A stretch of 64,000 bases of DNA from positions 13,109-77,108 of the forward strand of contig JBBIJR010000003.1 in NCBI GenBank assembly GCA_037445875.1. The letters run 5' to 3'. The stretch comes from Bacteroidota bacterium (GTDB lineage: Bacteria; CLD3; SB21). The position numbers and the translations under genes were made by a program. The notes beneath the pieces were generated by a model. It was not told the origin of the DNA. It was given only the letters and a program-made list of their open reading frames with translations, and ran no database searches. Positions 22,679 to 33,565 of the stretch are shown piece after piece; position 1 is the stretch's first letter; every line of letters begins with the position of its first letter.

Positions 22679-23769
22679 GAACCCTTTTCCAGCTGATGGT
22701 TGTGCAGTTCAAGGAGTTTGTCAGGGAACCGGGCATCCTGTTCTGGTCGCTGGGCTTTCCGGCCATCATGGCCTGGATCCTCGGTATCGCATTTACCAAA
22801 CAGGGCGAGATTGTGCGCAACGTCGCCCTCGTACGTGGAGAGCGGCCCGCACACGAAATCCGGCAGATGCTCGAAGAGGCCTCGCTGGTCGACAGCGCGG
22901 GCCCGCACCGGGTGTTCCGCTCGGCCGGGGAACCGGCCTCCGCAGCGTCGGGTTCTTTCCGGATTGCGGAGACGACATGGGAAGAGGCGATTGTGCGCGT
23001 CCAACGCGGCCAGGCGATCCTGTTGATGCATGAGCGGCCGGACGGCGTGCACGTGTACTTCGATCCGGTCAATCCGGAAGCCGAGCTGGCCTATCTCCAT
23101 CTCGCAGCGCTGTTGGACACGTCGGCCCGGCGGACCGGGACCGTCATCGCGGAACCGTTGAGCGAACGAGGCATGAGGTACATCGATTTTCTCGTGCCCG
23201 GGCTGATCGCCATGGGGATCATGATGTCGGCCATGTGGGGTATCAGTTATTCGTTGATCGAGAAACGCATAAAGAAGCTGCTGCGCCGCATGGTGGCCAC
23301 GCCGATGCGGAAGTCCGTGTTCCTCCTGTCGCATTTCCTCTCCCGGACGATCCTGAGTGGGATCGAATCCGTGCTGCTCTTTGTGTTTGCCTGGTGGTAT
23401 TTCGACGTCACGATCGAGGGCAGCCTGGCCGCTCTGGCCCTGTTGTTTGTTTCGGGCAACATGGCCTTCACGGGCATGGCCGTGCTCGTGTCCAGCCGCA
23501 CGCGCAACGCCGAAGTCGGCAACGGACTCATCAACGCCGTCGTGTTGCCGATGATGATCGGTTCCGGTATCTTCTTCAGCTACCACAATTTCCCCGAGTG
23601 GCTCGTTCCCTACATCGAGCCGCTGCCGTTGACCATGCTGGCCGACAGCATGCGGATGGTGTTCATCGAAGGTGCGGGCATCGCCGCCGTGTGGATGCAT
23701 GCCCTGGTGCTTGCGGCGATCGGCGCCGTGCTGTTCGTTCTCGGTCAGAGGATGTACCGATGGTATTGA
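22675..23769 (+). CDS. ABC-2 family transporter permease
   Basis: Six TM segments. Its start overlaps the ATPase stop, indicating translational coupling. Confidence 0.8.
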   Translation: MRTLFQLMVVQFKEFVREPGILFWSLGFPAIMAWILGIAFTKQGEIVRNVALVRGERPAHEIRQMLEEASLVDSAGPHRVFRSAGEPASAASGSFRIAETTWEEAIVRVQRGQAILLMHERPDGVHVYFDPVNPEAELAYLHLAALLDTSARRTGTVIAEPLSERGMRYIDFLVPGLIAMGIMMSAMWGISYSLIEKRIKKLLRRMVATPMRKSVFLLSHFLSRTILSGIESVLLFVFAWWYFDVTIEGSLAALALLFVSGNMAFTGMAVLVSSRTRNAEVGNGLINAVVLPMMIGSGIFFSYHNFPEWLVPYIEPLPLTMLADSMRMVFIEGAGIAAVWMHALVLAAIGAVLFVLGQRMYRWY

Positions 23770-24038
23770 GTGCGGCGGCTCCCTCCTTGCTCAAATCTCA
23801 GATGAAGTTGGATCGCCGTTTTCGAGCCGCGCGAAGGATACACCGTTCTGGCTTTCGCCTGAAGAACGATGGCAGGCCGGTGATCTCAAACAGAACAAGT
23901 AAGCCAGCCGCCGCCTGGGTGGCTTGAACGACCTAGAGGTATCTTCTGCTCCTTCCGTAATGTCCATCGCTTCTAACTGACCGCGCAGACGACCACGCAG
24001 CCTCATCAGCCGTTCACGGCGTAGGCAAGGCGGAGTTT

Positions 24039-24590
24039 TTGGTTGACTTACAGGTCGATGTTATAGATATTCAGGTCAGATTATGTGTCATAATAACCTT
24101 GAAGCGTAAGCGAAGCCTTTTCCTCCTCGCCGTTGTCCTCCTTGTTGTCGGCATTCTATTGACCCTGGAAAACTTCAACTTCATCGCAGGCGTCTCCGCG
24201 CACTGGCCGCTATTCCTCCTGATTACGGGCACAGGATTCATCCTGCTGTTTGTCGAACGGGACCGGGGCGACGACGCACTCTTGTGGTTGGGGAGCTTCA
24301 TGGCTCAACTCAGCGTCTTTTTCTATGTGCTGAACTTTACGTCCTGGAACGCGCTCGGCGTCTGGTGGCCGGTGTTCCTGGGACTCGTGGGAGTGAGTTT
24401 CCTTACCGTCGGCATCGTGCGCCGAAACTATGTGTTCACGGTCTTCGGCATCGCCTTCGTCGGACTGTTCTTCGTATTCACGCTCGTGTTCACGGTCTCC
24501 ATGAGGCTGTGGCCGATGTCGCTGGCCATCTTCGGGGCGTGCCTGCTGCTACTCGATTATCTGAACCGAACAAGGAGTGCCCATGGCTGA
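24039..24590 (+). CDS. Small polytopic membrane protein (LiaF-TM-like), start uncertain
   Basis: TTG start per the ORF track. An alternative TTG lies near LKRKRS. Five hydrophobic helices. Confidence 0.45.
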   Translation: MVDLQVDVIDIQVRLCVIITLKRKRSLFLLAVVLLVVGILLTLENFNFIAGVSAHWPLFLLITGTGFILLFVERDRGDDALLWLGSFMAQLSVFFYVLNFTSWNALGVWWPVFLGLVGVSFLTVGIVRRNYVFTVFGIAFVGLFFVFTLVFTVSMRLWPMSLAIFGACLLLLDYLNRTRSAHG

Positions 24591-25977
24591 GCGAGTCGTT
24601 TTCGTCGAACCGACCGGTTCCTTCTCCAACGTGTTTGCGTACTACATGACCATTCCCATGCTCGGCCCGCTGGTGCTCGGGACGATCGCGGAACAGGCCG
24701 GATACGACGTGGCCATACTGAACGAAAATCTCCTGCGCCGGCACATCCGTCCGGAGGAACTGGCCGACGTGGATATTCTGTGTGTGAGTTCCATGACCGC
24801 TACGGTGGAAAGGGGAAAAGAGATTGCCCGCCAGTACCGCGCGCTGCGCCAGGCGGCGGGAAAACCTGCTCGCGCAATCATCGGCGGCATTCACGCCAGC
24901 ATGATCCCGGACGACGTCACGGCGGACTTCGACCAGGTTTTTGTGGGTGAAGCCGAAACGAAGATCCTAGACGTGCTCAGAGAGAGGATCAGGGACAAGA
25001 TCGTGTACGGCGAGCGCGCGGCCGATCTCGATGCGGCGCCGATTCCCAATTTCAAGCTGCTCAAGAATTGGAAAAAGGTCCACTACTGGCCGATCCTCAC
25101 CTCACGCGGGTGTCCGTACGATTGCACGTTCTGTTCCGTGACGCAGATGTTCGGTCGCGGATACCGCACGAAAAGCGTAGAACGCGTGATGGAGGAAGTC
25201 CGGGCGTGCGAGACAGGCTGGATATTCTTCGTGGACGACCACTTTGTCGTCAATAAGAAGCGCACGCGGGCGATTCTGCAGGCCATGCGCCGGGAGAAGA
25301 TTCACAAGGACTGGTCGTGCCAGCTGCGGGCGGAGGTGAGCCGTGACGAGGAATTGGTCCGGGAAATGCGCAGCACCGGCTGCCGGACGGTCTACATCGG
25401 TCTTGAATCGATCAATCCGGCGAGCCTGATCGAGATCAACAAGAAGCAAACCGTCGACGATATCCGGGATTCCGTTCGCATCTTCAAACAGAATGCCATC
25501 AACGTTCACGGCATGTTCATGTTCGGCAGCGACTCCGACCGTCCGGACGTTTTCCGGCATACGTCGGATTTCTGCCGCCGGAGCGGACTCACCAGCGTAC
25601 AGTACCTGATCCTGACGCCCCTCCCGGGCACAGTGCTGTACCGAAAAATCGAGGAAGAGGGCCGGCTGCTCCACAGAGACTGGCGGTACTACGACGCGAT
25701 GCACGTCGTTTTTCAGCCGAAGCAATTGACACCGATCGAGTTGCAGCAGGGCATGATCGAGTGTTTTTCGGATTTCTACACCTATGCCGGCGCGGTCAAC
25801 GAATCGATCAATCTCGTCTACGAATCGTGCCGGGCCCTGGTGCGGCGGCTTTGGGAGAAGGCGTATTTTCCGTCGGTGGCTCCCATGGTGGTCAAGGTGT
25901 TCGGCCGTCCGATCGTGAAAAGCTGGATCCGGTTCAACCGGCCGTATCTGGAATACTTGAGTACGATGCGCCGCTGA
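24583..25977 (+). CDS. B12-binding domain-containing radical SAM protein (class B, DUF4070-type C-terminus)
   Basis: ORF 24577..25977. AAGGAG RBS before MAERVV. N-terminal cobalamin-binding fold (DVDILCVSSMT..GGIHAS). Radical SAM motif CPYDCTFC. Confidence 0.8.
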   Translation: MAERVVFVEPTGSFSNVFAYYMTIPMLGPLVLGTIAEQAGYDVAILNENLLRRHIRPEELADVDILCVSSMTATVERGKEIARQYRALRQAAGKPARAIIGGIHASMIPDDVTADFDQVFVGEAETKILDVLRERIRDKIVYGERAADLDAAPIPNFKLLKNWKKVHYWPILTSRGCPYDCTFCSVTQMFGRGYRTKSVERVMEEVRACETGWIFFVDDHFVVNKKRTRAILQAMRREKIHKDWSCQLRAEVSRDEELVREMRSTGCRTVYIGLESINPASLIEINKKQTVDDIRDSVRIFKQNAINVHGMFMFGSDSDRPDVFRHTSDFCRRSGLTSVQYLILTPLPGTVLYRKIEEEGRLLHRDWRYYDAMHVVFQPKQLTPIELQQGMIECFSDFYTYAGAVNESINLVYESCRALVRRLWEKAYFPSVAPMVVKVFGRPIVKSWIRFNRPYLEYLSTMRR

Positions 25978-26044
25978 GCCGGTAAGCCCAGGGAATTTTC
26001 CTTTCGGTTCCGTGTTATGGAGGGAAACCCGGAGCCTCTCCTAC

Positions 26045-26935
26045 ATGAAACGCCTGCTAGCGGTTCTTCTGTCTGCGAGTTCGTGCGTCGAAACGGAGTA
26101 CATTGGCGACCCGCCCGGTTCCCTCTCCCTTAGGGTGGTGCCCGCACAATCCTACGTACTTCTGGACAGTATGACGGTCTTTTCCGGAGAGCTTGAACAG
26201 GGCGCGCCGGTTGCCGTGAGGTGGGAGAGCGCCGACGGATCGATTGCGACCGTTGATCAGACGGGTACCGCCACGGGCCGTGCGGATGGCCAGGTATTCA
26301 TTCGAGCCCTGTTGGAGGGTGTGGCGAGCGACTCCGCGCTCCTCAACGTCCTGTCGGACACGTCCGGCATCGCCGTAATTACGGTGTCGCCCGAGGACAC
26401 GGTGCTTCGCACCGGTGACTCCATCCGGGCGGTCGCAGCGGCCCGATCGTATCACGGTCAATTGCTCGACGGCCTGGATTTCGCATGGGCGTCTTCCGAT
26501 ACGGCTGTGGCCGTCGTTACTCCGGAGGGCACCTTGACCGCGCGGTCCCCGGGCTTCAGTCTTGTAAGAGCGTCTGTGGGCCCGTTTCAAAGCGCTCCCG
26601 CGATCCTGCGCGTCACAGGCGCTTCCCGCACGGGTTCATTCATGGGATACAGCGGCACACCGGTGTCCGGCACGGCCAGGCTGGACGCCGCGGACGGCAC
26701 CGTCGCGCTGAGTTTTTCCGAAGATTTCCAGTGCGAACCCGGTCCTTCGTTGTACGTGTATCTGTCGCACAGCGGCGCGATCACGGCGTCCAGTCTCGAA
26801 ATCGCGCCGCTGAAGAGCGTGGCCGGTGCGCAAGCGTATACGATCCCGGACGGCGTCGGTCCCGGCGACTACGGCTTCGTGGTCATTCACTGCAAACCCT
26901 ATAACCATACCTTCGGATATGCGCAACTGGACTAG
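26045..26935 (+). CDS. Lipoprotein with two Big_2 (bacterial Ig-like) domains and a C-terminal DM13 domain
   Basis: ORF 26012..26935. Start MKRLLAVLLSASSC (lipobox). DM13-like GTARLDAADGTVALSFSEDFQCEPGPSLYVYLS. Confidence 0.6.
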   Translation: MKRLLAVLLSASSCVETEYIGDPPGSLSLRVVPAQSYVLLDSMTVFSGELEQGAPVAVRWESADGSIATVDQTGTATGRADGQVFIRALLEGVASDSALLNVLSDTSGIAVITVSPEDTVLRTGDSIRAVAAARSYHGQLLDGLDFAWASSDTAVAVVTPEGTLTARSPGFSLVRASVGPFQSAPAILRVTGASRTGSFMGYSGTPVSGTARLDAADGTVALSFSEDFQCEPGPSLYVYLSHSGAITASSLEIAPLKSVAGAQAYTIPDGVGPGDYGFVVIHCKPYNHTFGYAQLD

Positions 26936-27752
26936 CGCCCTGTTCATCCTTCTGCTGGCCTCGCGGGTCTCGGCGGGTGCATGGCCGCAGGAAAAGGGCA
27001 GTGGTTTTTACAAGCTTGAGACTTCGCTAATCGTAGCGGACGAGTACTATCTGTCCAACGGCGACCGGCAAAGTATCCCAACCACAAAGGAATGGACGAT
27101 CGCTCTGTACGGAGAGTACGGATTGACGGATCGTCTGACGGCCATTCTCTATTGGCCGATGAAATCGCTTGCGGTGAACCGACAGGTCGGAAGGCTCAGC
27201 GGCTTCGAATACGCGCCGGGCGGATCCGCAGCAGGGCCGGGCGATGCTCAGCTCGGCTTCCGCTTTAATGTGTTGAAACAAACGGTCTCCGTCTGGAGCC
27301 TCTCGTTCAACGTCGGTGTACCGACGGGTCAGCACAGCAACCGGGAGGGGCTGTTCACCGGGGACGGGGAATGGAATGCGGCGGCCCTGGTCGAGTATGG
27401 TCTTTCCCTATACCCACGGCCGTTGTACCTGGCTGCGCAAACGGGCATCAATCTCCGGAGCGCCGGGTACGAGCATGAATGGCACTACGGTGTGGAATTC
27501 GGCCTGGACGTGAATCGTCGGGTCGCTGCCATCCTGCGCGTTCAGGGCGTTCGGCCGATAGAGTCGGTTCGGTCCAACGCGGCGGTGGGCTCGCTCTATT
27601 CCAACGGCCAGCAGTACCTGGCGTACGGACTGGAATGGGATTACAAGCTCTCGGATCGCCTCGGGCTCGCCGCACAGTTCCGCTCGGCCGTCGGCGCGCG
27701 GAACATCCTCGCCGCTCCGATGTGGAGCCTCGGCCTGTTTGTCAGGTCGTGA
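26919..27752 (+). CDS. Secreted outer-membrane beta-barrel-like hypothetical protein
   Basis: Inside ORF 26826..27752. Start MRNWTSALFILLLASRVSA (signal peptide). It overlaps the upstream gene by 17 nt. Alternating hydrophobic beta-strand pattern. Confidence 0.5.
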   Translation: MRNWTSALFILLLASRVSAGAWPQEKGSGFYKLETSLIVADEYYLSNGDRQSIPTTKEWTIALYGEYGLTDRLTAILYWPMKSLAVNRQVGRLSGFEYAPGGSAAGPGDAQLGFRFNVLKQTVSVWSLSFNVGVPTGQHSNREGLFTGDGEWNAAALVEYGLSLYPRPLYLAAQTGINLRSAGYEHEWHYGVEFGLDVNRRVAAILRVQGVRPIESVRSNAAVGSLYSNGQQYLAYGLEWDYKLSDRLGLAAQFRSAVGARNILAAPMWSLGLFVRS

Positions 27753-27785
27753 TCCGGCACGCAAAAAAAACGTCGGGCGTGATGC

Positions 27786-28757
27786 TCAGAGAAGCGCTTT
27801 GAGCGCGCCCGCTCCCTTGACCGCCGTCTTCCTGATCCACGACCACGACTGCTGCGCGGACTTTTTCGGAAGTGTCACGATCACCACGGCCGCCACAATC
27901 ACGGCGGCGGACAGGAGCGTCCGGACCGTCAGCGGCTCTCTATCGACCAGCCAGCCTAAGAAAACAGCCACCACGGGATTGACGTACGCATAGGTAGCCA
28001 CCCGGGACGGGGTCGTCTGCTTCAACAGCCACACGTAAGCGCTGAACCCCACCAGGGATCCGAAAAGGATCAGATACACCAGGGAGACGAAAGAGGAAGT
28101 TGAAATTCCGCTGACATCCAGGCGATGGTGTTCCCCGCTCAACGCACCCGCCGCCATCAAACACAAGCCTCCTATCGACATCTGCATGCCGGTGGACAGC
28201 ACCGGCGATGGCGGGAGTTCGGCGCGCCGCGAATAGAGCGAGCCGCTTGCCCAGGAGAGCGCCGCTACAACGAGTACTGCGGCGCCCAGAGCATGCACGC
28301 GCCCGCCGCCGATCAATTCTTCCGGTCCGACGAGGATGAACAGACCCACCATCCCCATCCCCACGCTCAGAACATCGCGAAGGCCGGGACGAACGCGGTC
28401 TCCGGTGAACCAGTTGAGCACGACCATCCAGATCGGCACCGTGGCGACCAGCAGCGCCGTGAGGCCGGAGGGAACATATTGCTCCGACCACGTCACACCG
28501 CCGTTACCGCCCAGCAACATCAGCGCGCCGATGAACAGCGCCGACCGCCAGTGAACCCAAGACGGGACCACGTCTCCCCGAAGCCTGGCGAACGTGAACA
28601 GGATCAATCCGGCAAATCCGTTTCGCAGGCCGGCCATGAAGAAGGGCGGAATCGTGTCGATGGCGTATTTGATGAACAAGTACGTCGAGCCCCAGATAAT
28701 GTAGACCGACGCGAAAGCGAGGACGATCCTGAACCTGTGTGACTTCGCGATGGTCAA
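27786..28757 (-). CDS. EamA-family (DMT superfamily) transporter
   Basis: Ten TM helices and duplicated EamA domains. Confidence 0.8.
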   Translation of the reverse strand: MTIAKSHRFRIVLAFASVYIIWGSTYLFIKYAIDTIPPFFMAGLRNGFAGLILFTFARLRGDVVPSWVHWRSALFIGALMLLGGNGGVTWSEQYVPSGLTALLVATVPIWMVVLNWFTGDRVRPGLRDVLSVGMGMVGLFILVGPEELIGGGRVHALGAAVLVVAALSWASGSLYSRRAELPPSPVLSTGMQMSIGGLCLMAAGALSGEHHRLDVSGISTSSFVSLVYLILFGSLVGFSAYVWLLKQTTPSRVATYAYVNPVVAVFLGWLVDREPLTVRTLLSAAVIVAAVVIVTLPKKSAQQSWSWIRKTAVKGAGALKALL

Positions 28758-29242
28758 GGTTCCCTCCCTGTTTCTCCCGAGTTGGCCACGGGAATGTGGG
28801 TCGTTTCTTTCACCGTATTCAGCACAATGGTCGTGCGCGTGGAGAGTATCGTCGGGATGGTCCCTATCTTCGTGTTGAGCAGCCGGCCGAGCTCCTCCGT
28901 GTCTCGAACGCGGACCTTGATGAGAAAGCAGTCCTCGCCCGTGATGTGATGCACTTCCTGCACTTCGGGGAATTCAGCAAGCCGACGCGCATTCGACAAT
29001 TCGCCCACGCGATCCGCGGATCGGACGAAGATGAAGGCCAGCAGTCCGGTTCCTAGCGCTTTAGGATTCAGCCGTGCCTCGTATCCGGCAATCAAGCCCC
29101 GCTCCTCCAGCTTGCGGACCCTCTCCAGCACCGCCGACGGAGCCATCTCCACTCTCCTAGCCAGATCGGCGTTCGTTATTCTCGCATTCTCTTGAAGCAA
29201 TCCGAGAATCACGCGGTCAATGGAATCCAACTGTTCCGTCAT
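28754..29242 (-). CDS. Lrp/AsnC-family transcriptional regulator
   Basis: ORF 28754..29260. Start MTEQLDSIDRVILGLLQENARITNADLARRV (HTH_AsnC) followed by the RAM domain. It overlaps the EamA gene by 4 nt. Confidence 0.85.
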   Translation of the reverse strand: MTEQLDSIDRVILGLLQENARITNADLARRVEMAPSAVLERVRKLEERGLIAGYEARLNPKALGTGLLAFIFVRSADRVGELSNARRLAEFPEVQEVHHITGEDCFLIKVRVRDTEELGRLLNTKIGTIPTILSTRTTIVLNTVKETTHIPVANSGETGREP

Positions 29243-29520
29243 GTCAGCCTCGTTCTGCATTTTTGATATTCATACGAATATACGTTCGCCTTGTTCCATA
29301 AATAAGCGGCATTTATGCGGATGAACCGTCGAATCAGTGAATATACTTCGGTAACATTGGTACCGTCAAGTGCCAATTGCCACAAGAGTGGGATGGTCCA
29401 CTTACCCAAGGATAGTCTGCCAAAGAACTACTTTCCACCGAATTCTGGACACTTATTGGCTTGATAATCCATGACTGAAAGCCTACCTTTGACCATCCAG
29501 GAGTCTGAAAAGGGCCTAAA

Positions 29521-30411
29521 GTGAGTTCCGCAAGCGGAGAATTCCTGACTGCATTAGCCGGGCCGACGCCCTTATATTTGGACGGGGCAACCGGTTCGGA
29601 GTTGGAGGCGCGCGGGGTCGAACTTGTACTGCCGCTCTGGTCGGCCGTTGCCCTCCTCACGTCGGGAGGCCGGTCCATCCTCCAGGGATTGCACGAAGAA
29701 TACGTGCGCGCGGGTGCGGACATCGTTACCGCGAACACGTTTCGCACGAACCACCGTGCCCTAAAGGCGGCCGGACTTCACGCCAGAGGACGAGCGCTGA
29801 CCCAAACGGCGGTAGATCGGGTTCGCCTGGCCATCGATCGCGCCCGGGTTTCGCGCCGCGTGTTTGTGGCAGGTTCGGTTGCACCGGTTGAAGATTGCTA
29901 CCGGCCGGACCTGGTCCCTCCGGATGAGGAACTTCGGGACGAGCACCGACGTCACATCGATAACCTGTTCGATGCCCAGGTGGACGTCATCCTGATTGAA
30001 ACGATGAACACTGTTCGTGAAGCCCGCATCGCGCTGGAGTACGCCCTGCAAACGACCCTGCCGGTCTTACTGAGTTTTGTTTGCGGGGAGAAGGACGGAT
30101 ACCTGCCCGGCGGGGAAAGCCTCGAAGATGCCGTACGGACGGTTGATCTCCTGAAGCCGACTGCACTTCTGTTGAACTGCATTCCTGTCGAACGCATGTC
30201 GGCCAATCTCGCGATCTTGAGCAAAGCCACCGAACTTCCCCGAGGCGCGTATGCGAACATCCTGAGCGGGCAGGGAGGGAAGCCGGTTTCACCGGACCGG
30301 TACGCCGGCCATGCGCGGCAATGGATGCGTGAGTACTCATTGAAGATCGCTGGAGGCTGCTGCGGCACGACGCCGGCCCATATCGAAAGATTGACCGCAC
30401 ATACTGCCTGA
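29521..30411 (+). CDS. mmuM: Homocysteine S-methyltransferase family protein
   Basis: Hcy-binding domain. The C-terminal GCCGTTPAHI zinc-ligand motif. Confidence 0.8.
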   Translation: MSSASGEFLTALAGPTPLYLDGATGSELEARGVELVLPLWSAVALLTSGGRSILQGLHEEYVRAGADIVTANTFRTNHRALKAAGLHARGRALTQTAVDRVRLAIDRARVSRRVFVAGSVAPVEDCYRPDLVPPDEELRDEHRRHIDNLFDAQVDVILIETMNTVREARIALEYALQTTLPVLLSFVCGEKDGYLPGGESLEDAVRTVDLLKPTALLLNCIPVERMSANLAILSKATELPRGAYANILSGQGGKPVSPDRYAGHARQWMREYSLKIAGGCCGTTPAHIERLTAHTA

Positions 30412-30415
30412 CCGC

Positions 30416-33400
30416 ATGACGCGAACTCCCCATATCCTCATAGGTATCGCTCTCCTGACCGGTTCACTGGCGGCCCAGAAATACTCCGTTACGACCTACG
30501 GTGCAGCCGACGGCCTGCTCCCTTTTGCGGTCGAACGGCTGCACCAGGACCCGCTGGGGAATCTGTGGATGACCACGAGCGGCGGTCTCATGATGTATAA
30601 CGGGAAGTCTTTTCGTTCGTTCGGGCCGGAGGAAGGCCTGCCTGCCTATGCGACGCGAGCCATCGCCCAGGACGCAGACAAGGGGATATGGGTGGGAACG
30701 TTGGGTGGAGGCGCTGCACGGATCACCCGGCTGTCGACAGGCGACTACTCCCTCCGGGCCTTCACCAGGGAAAACGGCCTGCCGGACAATTCGGTCCTCT
30801 CACTCCTGGCCGCCGCAGACGGTTCTTTGTGGGTGGGGACCAAAGGAGGTTTGGCACACATTCGTAGAGATCGATCGGACACCCTGCATGTTCTTCGCAC
30901 ATGGCAGGAGCCGATCGTCAATTGTATGTACCAGGCCAAAGACGGCTCGTTGTGGTTCGGCGACATGTCGGGTGCCGTGCACGTGATCGCCGGGGACACG
31001 CTGCGGTCGATTCCCGTATTTCCCCCCCATGCGTCGGGAGTCACCGGACTGGCCGAGGACGCCGTTGGCGACCTGTGGGTGACCAGCTTCGCCGGCGGCG
31101 CACGAAAACTTCATTGGGTTCGCGGTCGATGGGCGGCTTTCTCCGACGCGTCGACGCGCGAGGTGCCCGCCGAGGTCTTCCACGTTCATCGCGACGGGGC
31201 AGGGCGACTCTGGTTTGCTACGTTCGGAGAAGGTGTGGTGAGCTATGACGGCCGGAGGTTCCAGTCCTTTTCTACGGCCAATGGCCTGCCGGAAAACAAC
31301 ACCGTGTGTACCTTCGTAGACCGTCAGGGCCTCTTGTGGGTTGGGACAGCCAATAGCGGCCTGTGCAAGCGTGGCGACCTTCCTTTTGTGTTCTTCGACA
31401 AAGAGACCGGCCTGCCCGGTAACCTGGTCCTCGACGTGATCGCAGACCGTCGAGGTTTCATGTGGGTGTCCTGTTATGAAAGCGGCCTTGTGAGGTTCGA
31501 CGGAACTTCGATTCGGGGCTTCTCGCGCAGGGAAGGACTCACCTCCCGAAAGGTCTACGCGCTGATGGAAACGGCGGATGGCCGGATCTGGGTCTCCACG
31601 ATGGGCGAAGGCGTATTCGTATACGACGGAAAGCGATTCAAGCGATTCCGTTCCTCGTATCTTCTCACCGACGTGTTGTGCATGTTCGAGGACCGGGAAG
31701 GCCAGATTTGGTTCGGTACCGATACCCACGGGGCCGTTCGACTCTCGCGCGACGGATCGCTCCTGCAGTTCACACCGGAACAGGGACTGGCGGGATTGCG
31801 TGTCTTCTCCATTCTGCAGGACCGGCGCGGTCGTATCTGGTTCGGGTGCGGGCAACCGAGCCGTCTCAAAGAAGCAGGCGGAGTCAGCGTATGGGACCCG
31901 GTCCGGTTTCTGAGGAACCTGAGGCCGTTCGTGACCTACGACAAACAGAACGGCTTTCCGAGCAACGAGGTCATTGCGCTGTATGAGGACCGCGACGGTG
32001 CCGTCTGGCTCGGGACCCGCCACCACGGGTTGTTTAGCTTCAGCAACGAGCAATTCACACCGTTTGGCAAGCGGGAGGGCTTGTTGTCCAACACGGTCAC
32101 CGCAATCGGAGAGGACAGACGGGGCCGACTGTGGGTGGGCACGGTGAAAGGCCTGCACGTACGGACGCCCGGCGGGTTTGACGTCTACACCAAGGCACAG
32201 GGTCTTCTCAGCGACGAGATCTACGAAAACGCCATGGCATTGGACCGGGACGGCCGGTTGTGGTTGGGGACGCCCGGCGGGCTGTGCCGGTTCCGGGTTG
32301 ACGACCTCGATGCTCGACCCTCGCCCCCTTCGTTGTACGTGGATCGCGTCCTGTCCAACGGCCAGCCCCTCGAGGCGGACGGGATGACAGACTTGTCGCA
32401 CGCCCGGAACGATATCGATTTTCAGGTAACCGGCATCGACTTCCGCGCGGAGAAACACCTCATGTACCAGTACTTTCTCGAAGGATTCGACGCAAACTGG
32501 CGCGATCCGACCCCGCGAGATTACCTGTCTTACACCAACCTCGAACCGCGGTCATACGTGTTCCATGCGCGGGTGTCCGGCTCTTCGGGTGCGTGGAGCG
32601 ATCCGGTGACGATGCCGTTCATCATCCATCCGGCCTTCTGGCAGACATGGTGGTTCCGCGGAACTCTCCTCACGGTGCTCATCGTGTCGGTGCCCTACGC
32701 GGCCCGGGTTTCACGCTCGGCCTTTCACAGGTTCCAAACGTGGCGGCGAAACCGCACGATCGCCCATTACCGGCTGAAGGGGCTCATCGGCGAAGGAGCC
32801 ATGGGATCCGTGTACGAGGCGTACGACCGAACGGCCCGCAAGACCGTTGCGCTGAAAGTGATCCACCGGCGTCTGATGGAAGATCCGGAGAATCAGTCCC
32901 GTTTTGAACGCGAGGGCCGCATTCTGTCGAAACTCAGCCATCCCAACGTCGTCCGGGTTTACGCAGCCGGGCAATGGATGGGCCGCGGATACATCGCCAT
33001 GGAGGTTCTGCCGAACGGCAATCTGCGCGACTACGTGAGCAAGCATTTTCCGCTCGATCTCAAAACCACGGCCCGACTCCTGACCGAGATCGCCGAAGGA
33101 CTGGCGTACATTCACGGACTGAACATCGTGCACCGGGACCTGAAAAGTGAGAACATCATGCTGGACGAACGCTGGCGGCCGAAGATCATGGACTTCGGTC
33201 TGTCGAAGTCCACGCTCGTGACGACCATGACGCAGGTCGGGACGATCATGGGGACGCTCGGATACGTTGCGCCGGAGCAGGTGACGGGACATAAGGTCGA
33301 CCAGCGCTCCGATCTGTTTTCCTTCGGGGTGATCATGTACGAAATGCTTACGCGGATGCTGCCCTTCCGAGGCGAAAACGAGATCGCCCTGATCCATTCG

Positions 33401-33565
33401 ATTTTCAACGACCTGCCCGAGCTGCCGTCGAACGTCAACCCTACGGTCTTCCGCGACCACGAGTGGATCGTGCTCAAGTGTCTCGAAAAAGATCCCGCTC
33501 ACCGGTACCAATCGTGCGAAGAATTACTCAAGGATTTCCGTTCGGTACACCGGTTGCTGCACTGA
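30416..33565 (+). CDS. Receptor-type Ser/Thr protein kinase: signal peptide, about 10 two-component-regulator-propeller (Reg_prop) repeats, Y_Y_Y domain, one TM helix, then a C-terminal STK domain
   Basis: Repeated GxxxGLxxW / G..G..WVGT motifs. YYY region FQVTGIDFRAEKHLMYQYFLEGFDANW. TM WWFRGTLLTVLIVSVPYAA. Kinase VIb catalytic loop HRDLKSENIML and DFG. Confidence 0.8.
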   Translation: MTRTPHILIGIALLTGSLAAQKYSVTTYGAADGLLPFAVERLHQDPLGNLWMTTSGGLMMYNGKSFRSFGPEEGLPAYATRAIAQDADKGIWVGTLGGGAARITRLSTGDYSLRAFTRENGLPDNSVLSLLAAADGSLWVGTKGGLAHIRRDRSDTLHVLRTWQEPIVNCMYQAKDGSLWFGDMSGAVHVIAGDTLRSIPVFPPHASGVTGLAEDAVGDLWVTSFAGGARKLHWVRGRWAAFSDASTREVPAEVFHVHRDGAGRLWFATFGEGVVSYDGRRFQSFSTANGLPENNTVCTFVDRQGLLWVGTANSGLCKRGDLPFVFFDKETGLPGNLVLDVIADRRGFMWVSCYESGLVRFDGTSIRGFSRREGLTSRKVYALMETADGRIWVSTMGEGVFVYDGKRFKRFRSSYLLTDVLCMFEDREGQIWFGTDTHGAVRLSRDGSLLQFTPEQGLAGLRVFSILQDRRGRIWFGCGQPSRLKEAGGVSVWDPVRFLRNLRPFVTYDKQNGFPSNEVIALYEDRDGAVWLGTRHHGLFSFSNEQFTPFGKREGLLSNTVTAIGEDRRGRLWVGTVKGLHVRTPGGFDVYTKAQGLLSDEIYENAMALDRDGRLWLGTPGGLCRFRVDDLDARPSPPSLYVDRVLSNGQPLEADGMTDLSHARNDIDFQVTGIDFRAEKHLMYQYFLEGFDANWRDPTPRDYLSYTNLEPRSYVFHARVSGSSGAWSDPVTMPFIIHPAFWQTWWFRGTLLTVLIVSVPYAARVSRSAFHRFQTWRRNRTIAHYRLKGLIGEGAMGSVYEAYDRTARKTVALKVIHRRLMEDPENQSRFEREGRILSKLSHPNVVRVYAAGQWMGRGYIAMEVLPNGNLRDYVSKHFPLDLKTTARLLTEIAEGLAYIHGLNIVHRDLKSENIMLDERWRPKIMDFGLSKSTLVTTMTQVGTIMGTLGYVAPEQVTGHKVDQRSDLFSFGVIMYEMLTRMLPFRGENEIALIHSIFNDLPELPSNVNPTVFRDHEWIVLKCLEKDPAHRYQSCEELLKDFRSVHRLLH

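What the first reader, a model, noticed from the sequence alone, without database searches (positions are those of the whole stretch)
24039..27752. B12-binding radical SAM enzyme (DUF4070-type) in an operon with a small polytopic membrane protein, a Big_2/DM13 lipoprotein and an overlapping outer-membrane protein
The radical SAM protein has the cobalamin-binding N-terminus and CPYDCTFC cluster typical of class-B enzymes, the class that includes methylases and ring-forming enzymes acting on lipids, pigments and cofactors. Its partners are all envelope-located. The membrane-protein stop overlaps the radical SAM start, and the DM13 lipoprotein overlaps the next gene by 17 nt, implying co-translation. 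DM13 domains are proposed redox/electron-transfer modules. Together this suggests an envelope lipid or cofactor modification system of unknown product.
Basis: inference. Interest (0 to 1): 0.5.

Follow-up and report, generated by a model that had tools for sequence, protein, structure and literature searches.

The report
Membrane-partnered B12 radical SAM gene pair
A small six-helix membrane protein and a vitamin-B12-type radical SAM enzyme form a tightly linked two-gene cassette, found in many uncultured anaerobic bacteria and some archaea, whose substrate is unknown; the two envelope genes downstream are a separate, unrelated pair.

Summary
All four genes exist as described, but they are two independent two-gene modules, not one operon-system.

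Module 1 is a roughly 160-aa six-helix membrane protein (weakly LiaI/LiaF-TM-like) whose stop overlaps the start of a 464-aa class-B radical SAM enzyme. The membrane gene sits directly upstream in 49-51 of 83 related loci, from Bacteroidota, Fibrobacterota, Zixibacteria, Spirochaetia, deltaproteobacteria, Patescibacteria and DPANN archaea. About half of those gene pairs overlap, and the two proteins co-diverge (Mantel r 0.89). Nothing else recurs nearby.

Module 2 is the Big_2/DM13 lipoprotein plus the OMP-like protein. It recurs as its own pair elsewhere, without the radical SAM gene.

The enzyme matches no named family. All NCBIfam class-B models score far below cutoff, and DUF4070 scores below threshold. 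The closest solved structure is AprD4, at 20% identity. No paper found in the searched library describes it.

My best reading is a membrane-docked class-B radical SAM enzyme that modifies a membrane-embedded substrate, probably by methylation. Substrate and chemistry are inferred, not shown.

This is a new variant of a known kind and of moderate interest.

The parts
24043..24071 (+). Sigma-70-like promoter match (TTGACT-17-GATATT) just upstream of the membrane-protein start. Weak, consensus match only.
   Evidence: 4 sites found against 1.6 expected in shuffles. Its position fits the TTG 24099 start. Not evidence of function.
24099..24590 (+). Gene for a 163-aa six-helix inner-membrane protein, the conserved partner of the radical SAM enzyme. 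It carries three invariant Trp-Pro motifs (W36P37, W90P91, W138P139) at the start of helices 2, 4 and 6. It is weakly LiaF-TM / LiaI-LiaF-like.
   Evidence: alignment A2; 49 homologues, 45-94% identity, all about 160 aa; AF2 pLDDT 85.7, six helices; LiaF-TM 25.4 bits vs cutoff 27. It lies upstream of the radical SAM gene in 49-51 of 83 loci.
24572..24577 (+). Shine-Dalgarno AAGGAG for the radical SAM gene. It lies inside the end of the membrane-protein gene, 5 nt before ATG 24583.
   Evidence: Read directly from the sequence. Similar purine-rich sites precede the radical SAM start in many related loci.
24583..24590 (+). Start/stop overlap ATGGCTGA, indicating translational coupling of the two genes.
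   Evidence: In 49 related loci, 25 pairs overlap (-4, -8, -17 nt and others) and 47 pairs lie within 93 nt.
24583..25977 (+). Gene for a 464-aa class-B-type radical SAM enzyme. It has an N-terminal cobalamin-type Rossmann domain, a radical SAM core and a conserved helical C-terminal tail.
   Evidence: Pfam; more than 3500 homologues, the top 120 at 52-100% identity, all unnamed; AF2 pLDDT 88.6; closest solved structures AprD4, MgmA, TsrM, CysS, OxsB.
24649..24963 (+). B12-binding (Rossmann) domain region of the enzyme. Contains invariant G103-G104-x-H106 and conserved S71/T74 (numbering from GTG 24577).
   Evidence: PF02310, 37.4 bits vs cutoff 32.1; residues invariant in all 80 relatives.
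25111..25134 (+). CPYDCTFC, the CxxxCxxC motif that binds the radical SAM [4Fe-4S] cluster.
   Evidence: The three Cys are invariant in 80 of 80 relatives. No second set of conserved Cys exists, so there is no sign of an auxiliary cluster.
26045..26935 (+). Big_2 x2 + DM13 probable lipoprotein. It belongs to a separate two-gene module, not to the radical SAM cassette.
   Evidence: Pfam; only 13 homologues; paired with the OMP-like gene in L086, L087 and L088; no membrane/radical SAM pair within 6 kb in L087 and L088.
26919..27752 (+). 277-aa secreted, OMP-like protein, 17-nt overlap with the DM13 gene. It is the partner of the DM13 lipoprotein, not of the radical SAM enzyme.
   Evidence: only sub-threshold OMP hits; 81%, 41% and 30% identical homologues directly after the DM13 gene in L086, L087 and L088.

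Best explanation
The real unit is a two-gene cassette. A roughly 160-aa, six-helix inner-membrane protein is co-translated with a cytoplasmic class-B radical SAM enzyme. The predicted topology is N- and C-termini in the cytoplasm, with three Trp-Pro hairpin repeats of LiaI/LiaF-TM type. The enzyme has a cobalamin-type Rossmann domain and one [4Fe-4S]/SAM site.

**Shown:**
- The pair is conserved, adjacent and usually overlapping, and the two proteins co-diverge across bacteria and DPANN archaea.
- Nothing else is co-conserved nearby.
- The enzyme belongs to no named family.

**Inferred:**
- The membrane protein is the enzyme's dedicated dock or substrate-presenting subunit, as LiaI docks LiaH. 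It would hold the enzyme at the inner face of the cytoplasmic membrane.
- There the enzyme would use the 5'-deoxyadenosyl radical, together with methyl-cobalamin, to modify an unactivated carbon of a membrane-embedded hydrophobic substrate such as a lipid tail, polyprenyl chain or quinone. C-methylation is the most likely reaction. Cyclisation or desaturation are possible alternatives.

The Big_2/DM13 lipoprotein and the OMP-like protein downstream are an unrelated two-gene module that happens to lie next to the cassette in this lineage.
For: **Linkage**
- tblastn and HMM searches find the membrane protein immediately upstream, on the same strand, in 49-51 of 83 loci.
- 25 of 49 pairs overlap and 47 of 49 lie within 93 nt.
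- The reciprocal test holds: 3 of 3 membrane-protein homologues are followed by a B12 radical SAM gene, as are all four radical SAM look-ups that had flanking context.
- The distance matrices of the two proteins correlate (Mantel r 0.89, 0 of 999 permutations reach it).
- All-vs-all clustering of flanking ORFs finds no third recurrent gene.

**Enzyme class**
- Both Pfam domains score above cutoff.
- CxxxCxxC, GGxH and S/T residues are invariant in 80 relatives, with no auxiliary Cys set.
- The AF2 model is confident and matches AprD4, MgmA, TsrM, CysS and OxsB.
- The best profile matches are the hopanoid enzymes HpnJ and HpnR, then PhpK, BchE and the ladderane radical SAM, all lipid-, pigment- or P-methylating class-B enzymes.

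**Membrane side**
- The partner has six predicted helices and weak LiaF-TM / LiaI-LiaF hits, which are precomputed for most homologues.
- The enzyme has a conserved basic amphipathic C-terminal helix (muH 0.64, net +3).

**Independence of DM13 and OMP:**
Against: - No substrate, product or physical interaction has been shown.
- 18 of 67 in-clade radical SAM genes lack an adjacent membrane gene. Their sequences, including the C-terminal tail, do not differ systematically from the linked ones. The partner is therefore not strictly required in cis.
- No natural fusion of the two proteins exists among 493 membrane-protein relatives.
- The most conserved motifs of the membrane protein face the outer side of the membrane, away from the cytoplasmic enzyme (topology inferred).
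- The cassette occurs in DPANN and Patescibacteria, which generally do not make their own lipids. It is about 55% identical between bacteria and archaea, whose bulk lipids differ.
- The closest solved structure, AprD4, is not known to use cobalamin (my own knowledge of that enzyme), so B12 use is not guaranteed.
- One TM-less Fibrobacterota clade has a carrier protein and a PP-loop ATPase downstream. That hints at a carrier-bound, non-membrane substrate for at least that branch.
Confidence: 0.45

Rival explanations
1. The membrane protein is a small permease or exporter, or a cobamide-uptake or handling factor. The enzyme acts on a soluble small molecule that is imported or exported through it, and the membrane is not the site of catalysis.
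For: - The partner is a stand-alone six-helix protein about the size of small transporter subunits.
- Its conserved polar and aromatic motifs sit at the outer membrane face.
- The cassette is self-contained, and occurs in DPANN and Patescibacteria that depend on imported compounds.
- A TM-less paralogue clade is linked to a carrier protein and a PP-loop ATPase, which suggests soluble or carrier-bound chemistry.
Against: - No Pfam transporter family matches; the only hits are LiaF-TM-type.
- No cobalamin riboswitch or other Rfam element lies in the region.
- No ATPase or binding protein is co-conserved.
Confidence: 0.2
2. The membrane protein is itself the substrate. The radical SAM enzyme would modify a residue of its co-translated partner post-translationally, as the class-B enzymes MgmA and Mmp10 do on methyl-coenzyme M reductase.
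For: - The gene order is strict and one-to-one, with translational coupling and co-divergence.
- MgmA is among the closest solved structures.
- The membrane protein is unusually conserved for its size, at 45-60% identity across phyla.
Against: - The predicted cytoplasmic loops are short and variable. Only one acidic position (D58) is invariant there.
- No peptide-recognition (RRE) or SPASM domain was detected.
- In-clade enzymes occur without the membrane gene nearby.
- The membrane-protein family is far smaller (493 representatives) than the enzyme's homologue set.
Confidence: 0.1
3. All four genes (membrane protein, radical SAM enzyme, DM13 lipoprotein, OMP) form one envelope lipid- or cofactor-modification system, with DM13 as the redox module.
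For: - In this window the four genes are on the same strand.
- Only 67 nt separate the radical SAM and DM13 genes, with no terminator-like site between them. Co-transcription here is possible.
- A close relative (L001) keeps the same order.
Against: - DM13 and the OMP-like gene are absent from the other 82 radical SAM loci.
- They form their own overlapping pair in L087 and L088, where no membrane/radical SAM pair lies within 6 kb.
- DM13 would sit outside the cytoplasmic membrane, while the radical SAM enzyme has no signal peptide and needs cytoplasmic SAM and reductant.
Confidence: 0.04
4. The enzyme has the class-B fold but does not use cobalamin, like AprD4. It would catalyse a non-methylating radical reaction such as dehydration, rearrangement or desaturation.
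For: - AprD4 is the top structural and sequence match in the PDB.
- Recently described B12 radical SAM lipid enzymes include cyclases and a desaturase as well as methylases (bioRxiv 10.1101/2025.10.20.683597; PMC13459092).
Against: - Identity to AprD4 is only 20%, and the NCBIfam AprD4 model scores 86 bits against a cutoff of 500.
- The GG-x-H and S/T residues of the cobalamin-type Rossmann domain are invariant in all 80 relatives, which argues for a functional cofactor site.
- Most characterised class-B enzymes are methylases (PMC13331322).
Confidence: 0.15

Closest known systems
HpnJ and HpnR (hopanoid-modifying class-B radical SAM enzymes; NCBIfam TIGR03471, TIGR04367)
   Same: They share the B12-domain plus radical SAM architecture and act on a membrane lipid. 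They are the best-scoring named profiles for all 21 family members tested.
   Different: Scores are 125 and 111 bits against cutoffs of 578 and 650, and cover only the core. No hopanoid genes lie nearby. HpnJ and HpnR have no dedicated membrane-protein partner (none is mentioned in review PMC13459092). This family's taxa (FCB bacteria, DPANN) are not, to my knowledge, known hopanoid producers.
AprD4 (PDB 6fd2) and MgmA (PDB 9ccb), the closest solved structures
   Same: The overall two-domain fold is the same (Foldseek E 2e-19 and 1e-17, TM-score about 0.6-0.7). Sequence profile hits are E 7e-23 and 3e-18.
   Different: Identity is 16-20%. AprD4 acts on a soluble aminoglycoside and MgmA on a protein. 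Neither is known to have a membrane partner (my own knowledge; not checked here). The NCBIfam equivalog cutoffs are missed by a wide margin.
Archaeal and bacterial lipid class-B radical SAM enzymes (GrsA/B, Gmm, Cgm/Pgm, Ted, the ladderane radical SAM)
   Same: They are B12 radical SAM enzymes that methylate, cyclise or desaturate inert lipid tails under anoxic conditions. That is the kind of chemistry proposed here (PMC11214058; bioRxiv 10.1101/2025.10.20.683597; PMC13459092).
   Different: Their taxonomic spread differs: they are mostly found in TACK and Euryarchaeota (PMC11214058). They cluster with tes, gms or transporter genes, not with a LiaF-TM-like gene. No reference sequences were available here for a direct tree, apart from the ladderane model (88 bits vs cutoff 360).
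LiaI/LiaF transmembrane modules (Pfam PF18917, PF22570)
   Same: They are small polytopic proteins built from hairpin repeats. LiaI acts as a membrane anchor for a cytoplasmic partner, LiaH (established knowledge). The Pfam hits on the window protein lie just below cutoff, and hits are precomputed on most homologues.
   Different: The protein has no LiaF C-terminal domain. No LiaS/LiaR or PspA-like genes lie nearby. The partner is a radical SAM enzyme. No solved structure exists to compare folds.
HgcA (membrane-tethered corrinoid protein of mercury methylation)
   Same: It is a corrinoid-dependent methyl-transfer protein held at the membrane by a small polytopic domain, and it occurs in anaerobes of sediments (PMC11588087).
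   Different: HgcA is not a radical SAM enzyme, and its membrane domain is fused rather than a separate gene. No sequence relationship was detected. This is an analogy only.

Membership tests
Radical SAM superfamily | CxxxCxxC cluster motif and the PF04055 core above the gathering score | tested here: met
   CPYDCTFC is present. PF04055 scores 69.6 bits vs 29.5. The three Cys are invariant in 80 of 80 relatives.
Class B (cobalamin-domain) radical SAM | N-terminal B12-binding Rossmann domain (PF02310) above the gathering score, and a fold like solved class-B enzymes | tested here: met
   PF02310 scores 37.4 bits vs 32.1. Foldseek matches TsrM, CysS, OxsB and MgmA at E 1e-15 to 1e-17. GG-x-H is invariant.
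Class B (cobalamin-domain) radical SAM | Actual binding and use of cobalamin | not testable with these tools
   This needs purified protein. The top structural hit, AprD4, is not known to use cobalamin (my own knowledge), so the fold alone is not proof.
DUF4070-containing radical SAM (PF13282) | PF13282 hit at or above 22 bits | tested here: not met
   The score is 13.5 bits, E 0.078, covering only 50 of 144 profile positions. Only one homologue carries a 'faint' precomputed hit.
HpnJ / HpnR / BchE / PhpK / ladderane radical SAM / AprD4 / MJ_0865 (MgmA) / BzaD / TsrM-type (NCBIfam equivalogs) | Whole-protein score at or above each model's curated cutoff | tested here: not met
   The best score is HpnJ, 125 bits vs 577.6. 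All other models score at or below 111 bits against cutoffs of 251-775. The same pattern holds for all 21 family members.
LiaF-TM / LiaI-LiaF-like TM (PF22570, PF18917) | Pfam hit at or above 27 bits | tested here: inconclusive
   The window protein scores 25.4 and 22.6 bits, just below cutoff. Most homologues carry precomputed hits to both families. No solved structure exists for a fold test.
LiaFSR / LiaIH envelope-stress system | Presence of the LiaF C-terminal domain, a LiaS/LiaR two-component system, or a PspA-like LiaH nearby | tested here: not met
   The protein is TM-only (163 aa). None of these genes appears in the window, in the eleven annotated look-ups around the cassette or its DM13 neighbour, or among recurrent flank clusters.
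   They occur in 0 of 82 other loci. The DM13 and OMP-like genes pair on their own in L086-L088.
Anti-phage defence systems (PADLOC) | A specific match of either protein to a defence-system model | tested here: not met
   There is only a generic radical-SAM-core hit (PDC-M51A, E 2e-14) and nothing for the membrane protein. No close homologue was found in phage records or viral contigs.
GDGT/GMGT-modifying B12 radical SAM enzymes (Grs, Gmm, Cgm/Pgm, Ted) | Phylogenetic clustering with the characterised sequences | not tested
The published taxonomic spread (mostly TACK and Euryarchaeota; PMC11214058) and published gene neighbourhoods differ from those seen here.

The most novel reading that the evidence does not exclude
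The cassette is a self-contained, horizontally mobile membrane-remodelling module. A docked B12 radical SAM enzyme would methylate, or otherwise edit, hydrocarbon chains already sitting in the membrane. It would work in both bacterial and archaeal membranes, including those of DPANN and Patescibacteria symbionts that scavenge lipids rather than make them. If so, it could be a source of orphan extra-methylated lipids seen in anoxic sediments, and the first lipid radical SAM enzyme with an obligate integral-membrane subunit.
Probability: 0.15. Interest if true: 0.75.

Novelty: new variant of a known kind. Interest (0 to 1): 0.48.

Why it matters
Class-B radical SAM enzymes carry out some of the hardest reactions in biology, and most families remain unassigned.

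- **A clear unit to test.** This family is large and strongly conserved, at 50-75% identity across phyla and about 55% between bacteria and DPANN archaea. All 80 genome loci retrieved are MAGs or single-cell genomes, with no cultured isolate among them. It comes with a dedicated membrane subunit, which none of the characterised lipid-modifying radical SAM enzymes reviewed is reported to have. Two genes expressed together therefore define a simple experiment.
- **Possible pay-off.** If the substrate is a membrane lipid, the cassette could explain unassigned lipid biomarkers from anoxic settings. It would also show how a soluble radical enzyme reaches a substrate buried in the bilayer.
- **If the substrate is not a lipid,** the result still corrects the annotation of this locus: it is two unrelated gene pairs, not one four-gene system.

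Tried and rejected
- **Four-gene operon-system:** rejected. The DM13 and OMP-like genes are not co-conserved with the radical SAM gene and pair independently.
- **DUF4070 label:** below threshold.
- **Named class-B family:** all NCBIfam models are far below cutoff, for the window protein and for 20 relatives.
- **Cobalamin riboswitch or other RNA element:** none in 23000-28500 at E<=1.
- **Natural fusion of the two proteins (Rosetta stone):** none among 493 membrane-protein relatives. The three longer enzyme homologues checked have N-terminal extensions with no membrane-protein-like sequence, or a C-terminal extension.
- **Mobile-element or viral origin:** plasmid hits are at most 31% identical, there are no phage hits, and viral contigs reach at most 30% identity.
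- **Defence system:** no specific PADLOC match.
- **Residues separating TM-linked from TM-less enzymes:** none found.
- **Auxiliary Fe-S cluster:** no conserved extra Cys set.
- **Literature:** no paper combines radical SAM with DUF5668 or LiaF. Papers on lipid radical SAM enzymes describe other families.

Full report
**1. Observation**

The region holds four same-strand genes, as described.
- The first ORF is listed as 24039-24590. Homologues of 159-171 aa, and a 94%-identical 163-aa protein, place its real start at TTG 24099.
- The radical SAM ORF is listed from GTG 24577. The 100%-identical database protein is 464 aa, so it starts at ATG 24583.
- That ATG is preceded by AAGGAG at 24572-24577 and overlaps the upstream stop codon (ATGGCTGA).
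- Pfam confirms Radical_SAM (69.6 bits) and B12-binding (37.4 bits, cutoff 32.1). The CPYDCTFC motif is present.
- The DUF4070 label is not confirmed (13.5 bits against 22).
- The third gene (26045-26935) has two Big_2 domains and a DM13 domain.
- The fourth gene (26919-27752) overlaps the third by 17 nt. It has a signal peptide but only sub-threshold outer-membrane hits.

**2. What is conserved**

I fetched 80 loci encoding relatives of the enzyme from one genome per species and added look-ups of individual homologues.
- The membrane protein lies immediately upstream on the same strand in 49 loci by HMM, plus two contig-truncated cases.
- In 25 of 49 pairs the genes overlap (-4, -8, -17 nt and others), and 47 of 49 lie within 93 nt.
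- The reverse test also holds. Three membrane-protein homologues looked up on long contigs are each followed directly by a B12 radical SAM gene.
- Pairwise distances of the two proteins over 44 loci correlate strongly (Mantel r 0.89, 0 of 999 permutations reach it). They have been inherited and transferred together.
- Clustering all flanking ORFs found no third recurrent gene. The other large clusters were antisense shadow ORFs and generic ABC ATPases.
- On a neighbour-joining tree, the linked arrangement covers the whole clade down to about 42% identity. 18 in-clade members lack an adjacent partner. An outgroup at 40% identity or less (Armatimonadota, some deltaproteobacteria) never has one.
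- That tree carries no support values and the ORF calls were mechanical, so the fine branching should not be over-read.

**3. The downstream pair is separate**

- The DM13 lipoprotein and the OMP-like protein are absent from all 82 other radical SAM loci.
- The DM13 protein has only 13 detectable homologues.
- In the three I could place on contigs, it is followed by a homologue of the window's OMP-like protein (81%, 41% and 30% identity). In two of them the overlap is the same 17 nt.
- In L087 and L088 there is no membrane/radical SAM pair within 6 kb.
- The window therefore holds two independent two-gene modules side by side.
- No terminator-like site separates them. Read-through transcription in this lineage cannot be excluded, but that is not evidence of a shared function.

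**4. The enzyme**

- It has more than 3500 homologues at E<=1e-10. The top 120 are 52-100% identical and none carries a specific name.
- Every NCBIfam class-B model is hit at a similar low level. The top scores are HpnJ at 125 bits, HpnR at 111, PhpK at 105, BchE at 98, the ladderane enzyme at 88 and AprD4 at 86. All are far below cutoffs of 251-775 bits. The same holds for all 21 family members tested.
- The family is therefore about equally distant from all named ones.
- The AF2 model is confident (pLDDT 88.6). Its best solved matches are AprD4 (20% identity), MgmA, TsrM, CysS and OxsB.
- Across 80 relatives, only the three cluster cysteines and one further Cys are universal, so there is no sign of an auxiliary cluster. 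G103-G104-x-H106 and S71/T74 of the Rossmann domain are invariant. This fits a working cobalamin site but does not prove one.
- The C-terminal 40 residues form conserved helices, including a basic amphipathic one.

**5. The membrane protein**

- AF2 gives six helices (pLDDT 85.7).
- Charge distribution suggests both termini are cytoplasmic (inference).
- Three invariant Trp-Pro motifs open helices 2, 4 and 6, so the protein is a triple hairpin repeat.
- Pfam LiaF-TM and LiaI-LiaF-like hits lie just below cutoff on the window protein and are precomputed on most homologues.
- No solved structure resembles it.
- A profile search of 1.84 billion representatives finds 493 relatives. All are short, and none is fused to an enzyme domain.

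**6. Distribution**

- Linked cassettes occur in Bacteroidota, Candidatus Zhuqueibacter, Fibrobacterota, Zixibacteria, Spirochaetia, deltaproteobacteria, a Patescibacteria MAG, Woesearchaeota and Nanoarchaeota. The last includes a single-cell genome.
- Archaeal context is supported by PAC2 - membrane protein - radical SAM synteny and a TrmB-type regulator.
- All 80 loci come from MAGs or SAGs; none is from a cultured isolate.
- There are no close copies on plasmids, phages or viral contigs, no defence-system match, and no riboswitch.

**7. Mechanism**

The shown facts are a conserved, co-translated and co-diverging pair, made of a polytopic membrane protein and a cytoplasmic class-B radical SAM enzyme with a single cluster.

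From these I infer that the membrane protein docks the enzyme at the inner face of the membrane and gives it access to a bilayer-embedded substrate. C-methylation via methyl-cobalamin is the most likely chemistry, because most characterised class-B enzymes are methylases (PMC13331322). The nearest named profiles also act on lipids or pigments. Cyclisation or desaturation are realistic alternatives, given recent archaeal examples (bioRxiv 10.1101/2025.10.20.683597).

Several points weigh against this reading.
- The partner is absent next to 18 in-clade genes.
- The partner's conserved motifs face outward.
- The cassette occurs in organisms that do not make lipids.
- The enzyme is about 55% identical across domains whose bulk lipids differ.
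- One TM-less clade is linked to a carrier protein and a PP-loop ATPase.

The rivals are a transporter role for the partner, the partner as substrate, and a non-cobalamin AprD4-like reaction.

**8. Comparison with known systems, and verdict**

- In the recent review of lipid-modifying radical SAM enzymes, none of my search terms for a membrane subunit or anchor occurs.
- No paper in the searched library links a radical SAM enzyme with a LiaF/DUF5668-type protein.
- The finding is therefore a new variant of a known kind: an unnamed class-B radical SAM family with a dedicated membrane subunit.
The four-gene system was not.
- Interest is moderate. The unit is well defined and testable, but its substrate remains unknown.

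Noticed in passing
window 26045-27752; L086 85-1666; L087 6001-7735; L088 6001-7824: The Big_2/DM13 lipoprotein and a roughly 277-aa secreted OMP-like protein form their own rare two-gene module, usually with a 17-nt overlap. Only 13 DM13-protein homologues were found in 5.8 billion proteins. The OMP-like partner has no above-threshold family. The function is unknown.
   Followed up: partly
L042 8468-9782; L047 3022-4334; L069 8447-9769; L044 8776-9801: In a Fibrobacterota clade of the same radical SAM family that lacks the membrane partner, the enzyme gene is followed by an 88-89-aa PP-binding carrier protein (not called in L044) and a NAD-synthase-like PP-loop ATPase. This suggests a carrier-bound substrate for that branch.
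   Followed up: partly
L037 5289-5930; L031 9175-9741: An FMN_red / flavodoxin-like reductase gene lies directly after, or close to, the radical SAM gene in two TM-less loci. It is a possible electron donor for the cluster.
   Followed up: no
L050 8433-9827: A second, distantly related (28% identity) B12-binding radical SAM gene overlaps the end of the cassette's enzyme gene in one Fibrobacteraceae MAG.
   Followed up: no
L056 5738-6454 and L060 5739-6449: A PAC2-family gene sits directly upstream of the cassette in both a contig binned as Methanosarcinales and a Nanoarchaeota single-cell genome. The shared synteny suggests the 'Methanosarcinales' contigs may be mis-binned DPANN DNA.
   Followed up: no
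window 27786-29260 (-) and 29521-33565 (+); L086 1695-6849: Four genes are syntenic with a 68-81% identical relative (L086): a YedA-like EamA exporter with an Lrp/AsnC regulator, then a homocysteine S-methyltransferase-domain gene and a 1049-aa protein. In L086 that last protein carries Reg_prop/Y_Y_Y and protein-kinase domains. This is simply the local backbone of this lineage.
   Followed up: no
window 23770-24098: A 330-nt non-coding gap separates the ABC-2 permease gene from the membrane-protein gene. It has no Rfam match. It contains one sigma-70-like promoter match at 24043-24071.
   Followed up: partly
L074 5830-6942, L076 8235-8735 (also L075, L078, L080, L082): The outgroup clade of the radical SAM family (40% identity or less; Armatimonadota/Fervidibacter and one Pseudomonadota MAG) has no membrane partner. 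It is instead flanked by a RibD-like deaminase/reductase in L074, L076, L078 and L080, and by a nitroreductase in L074-L076, L078 and L082. That points to a different, possibly flavin-related, context.
   Followed up: no
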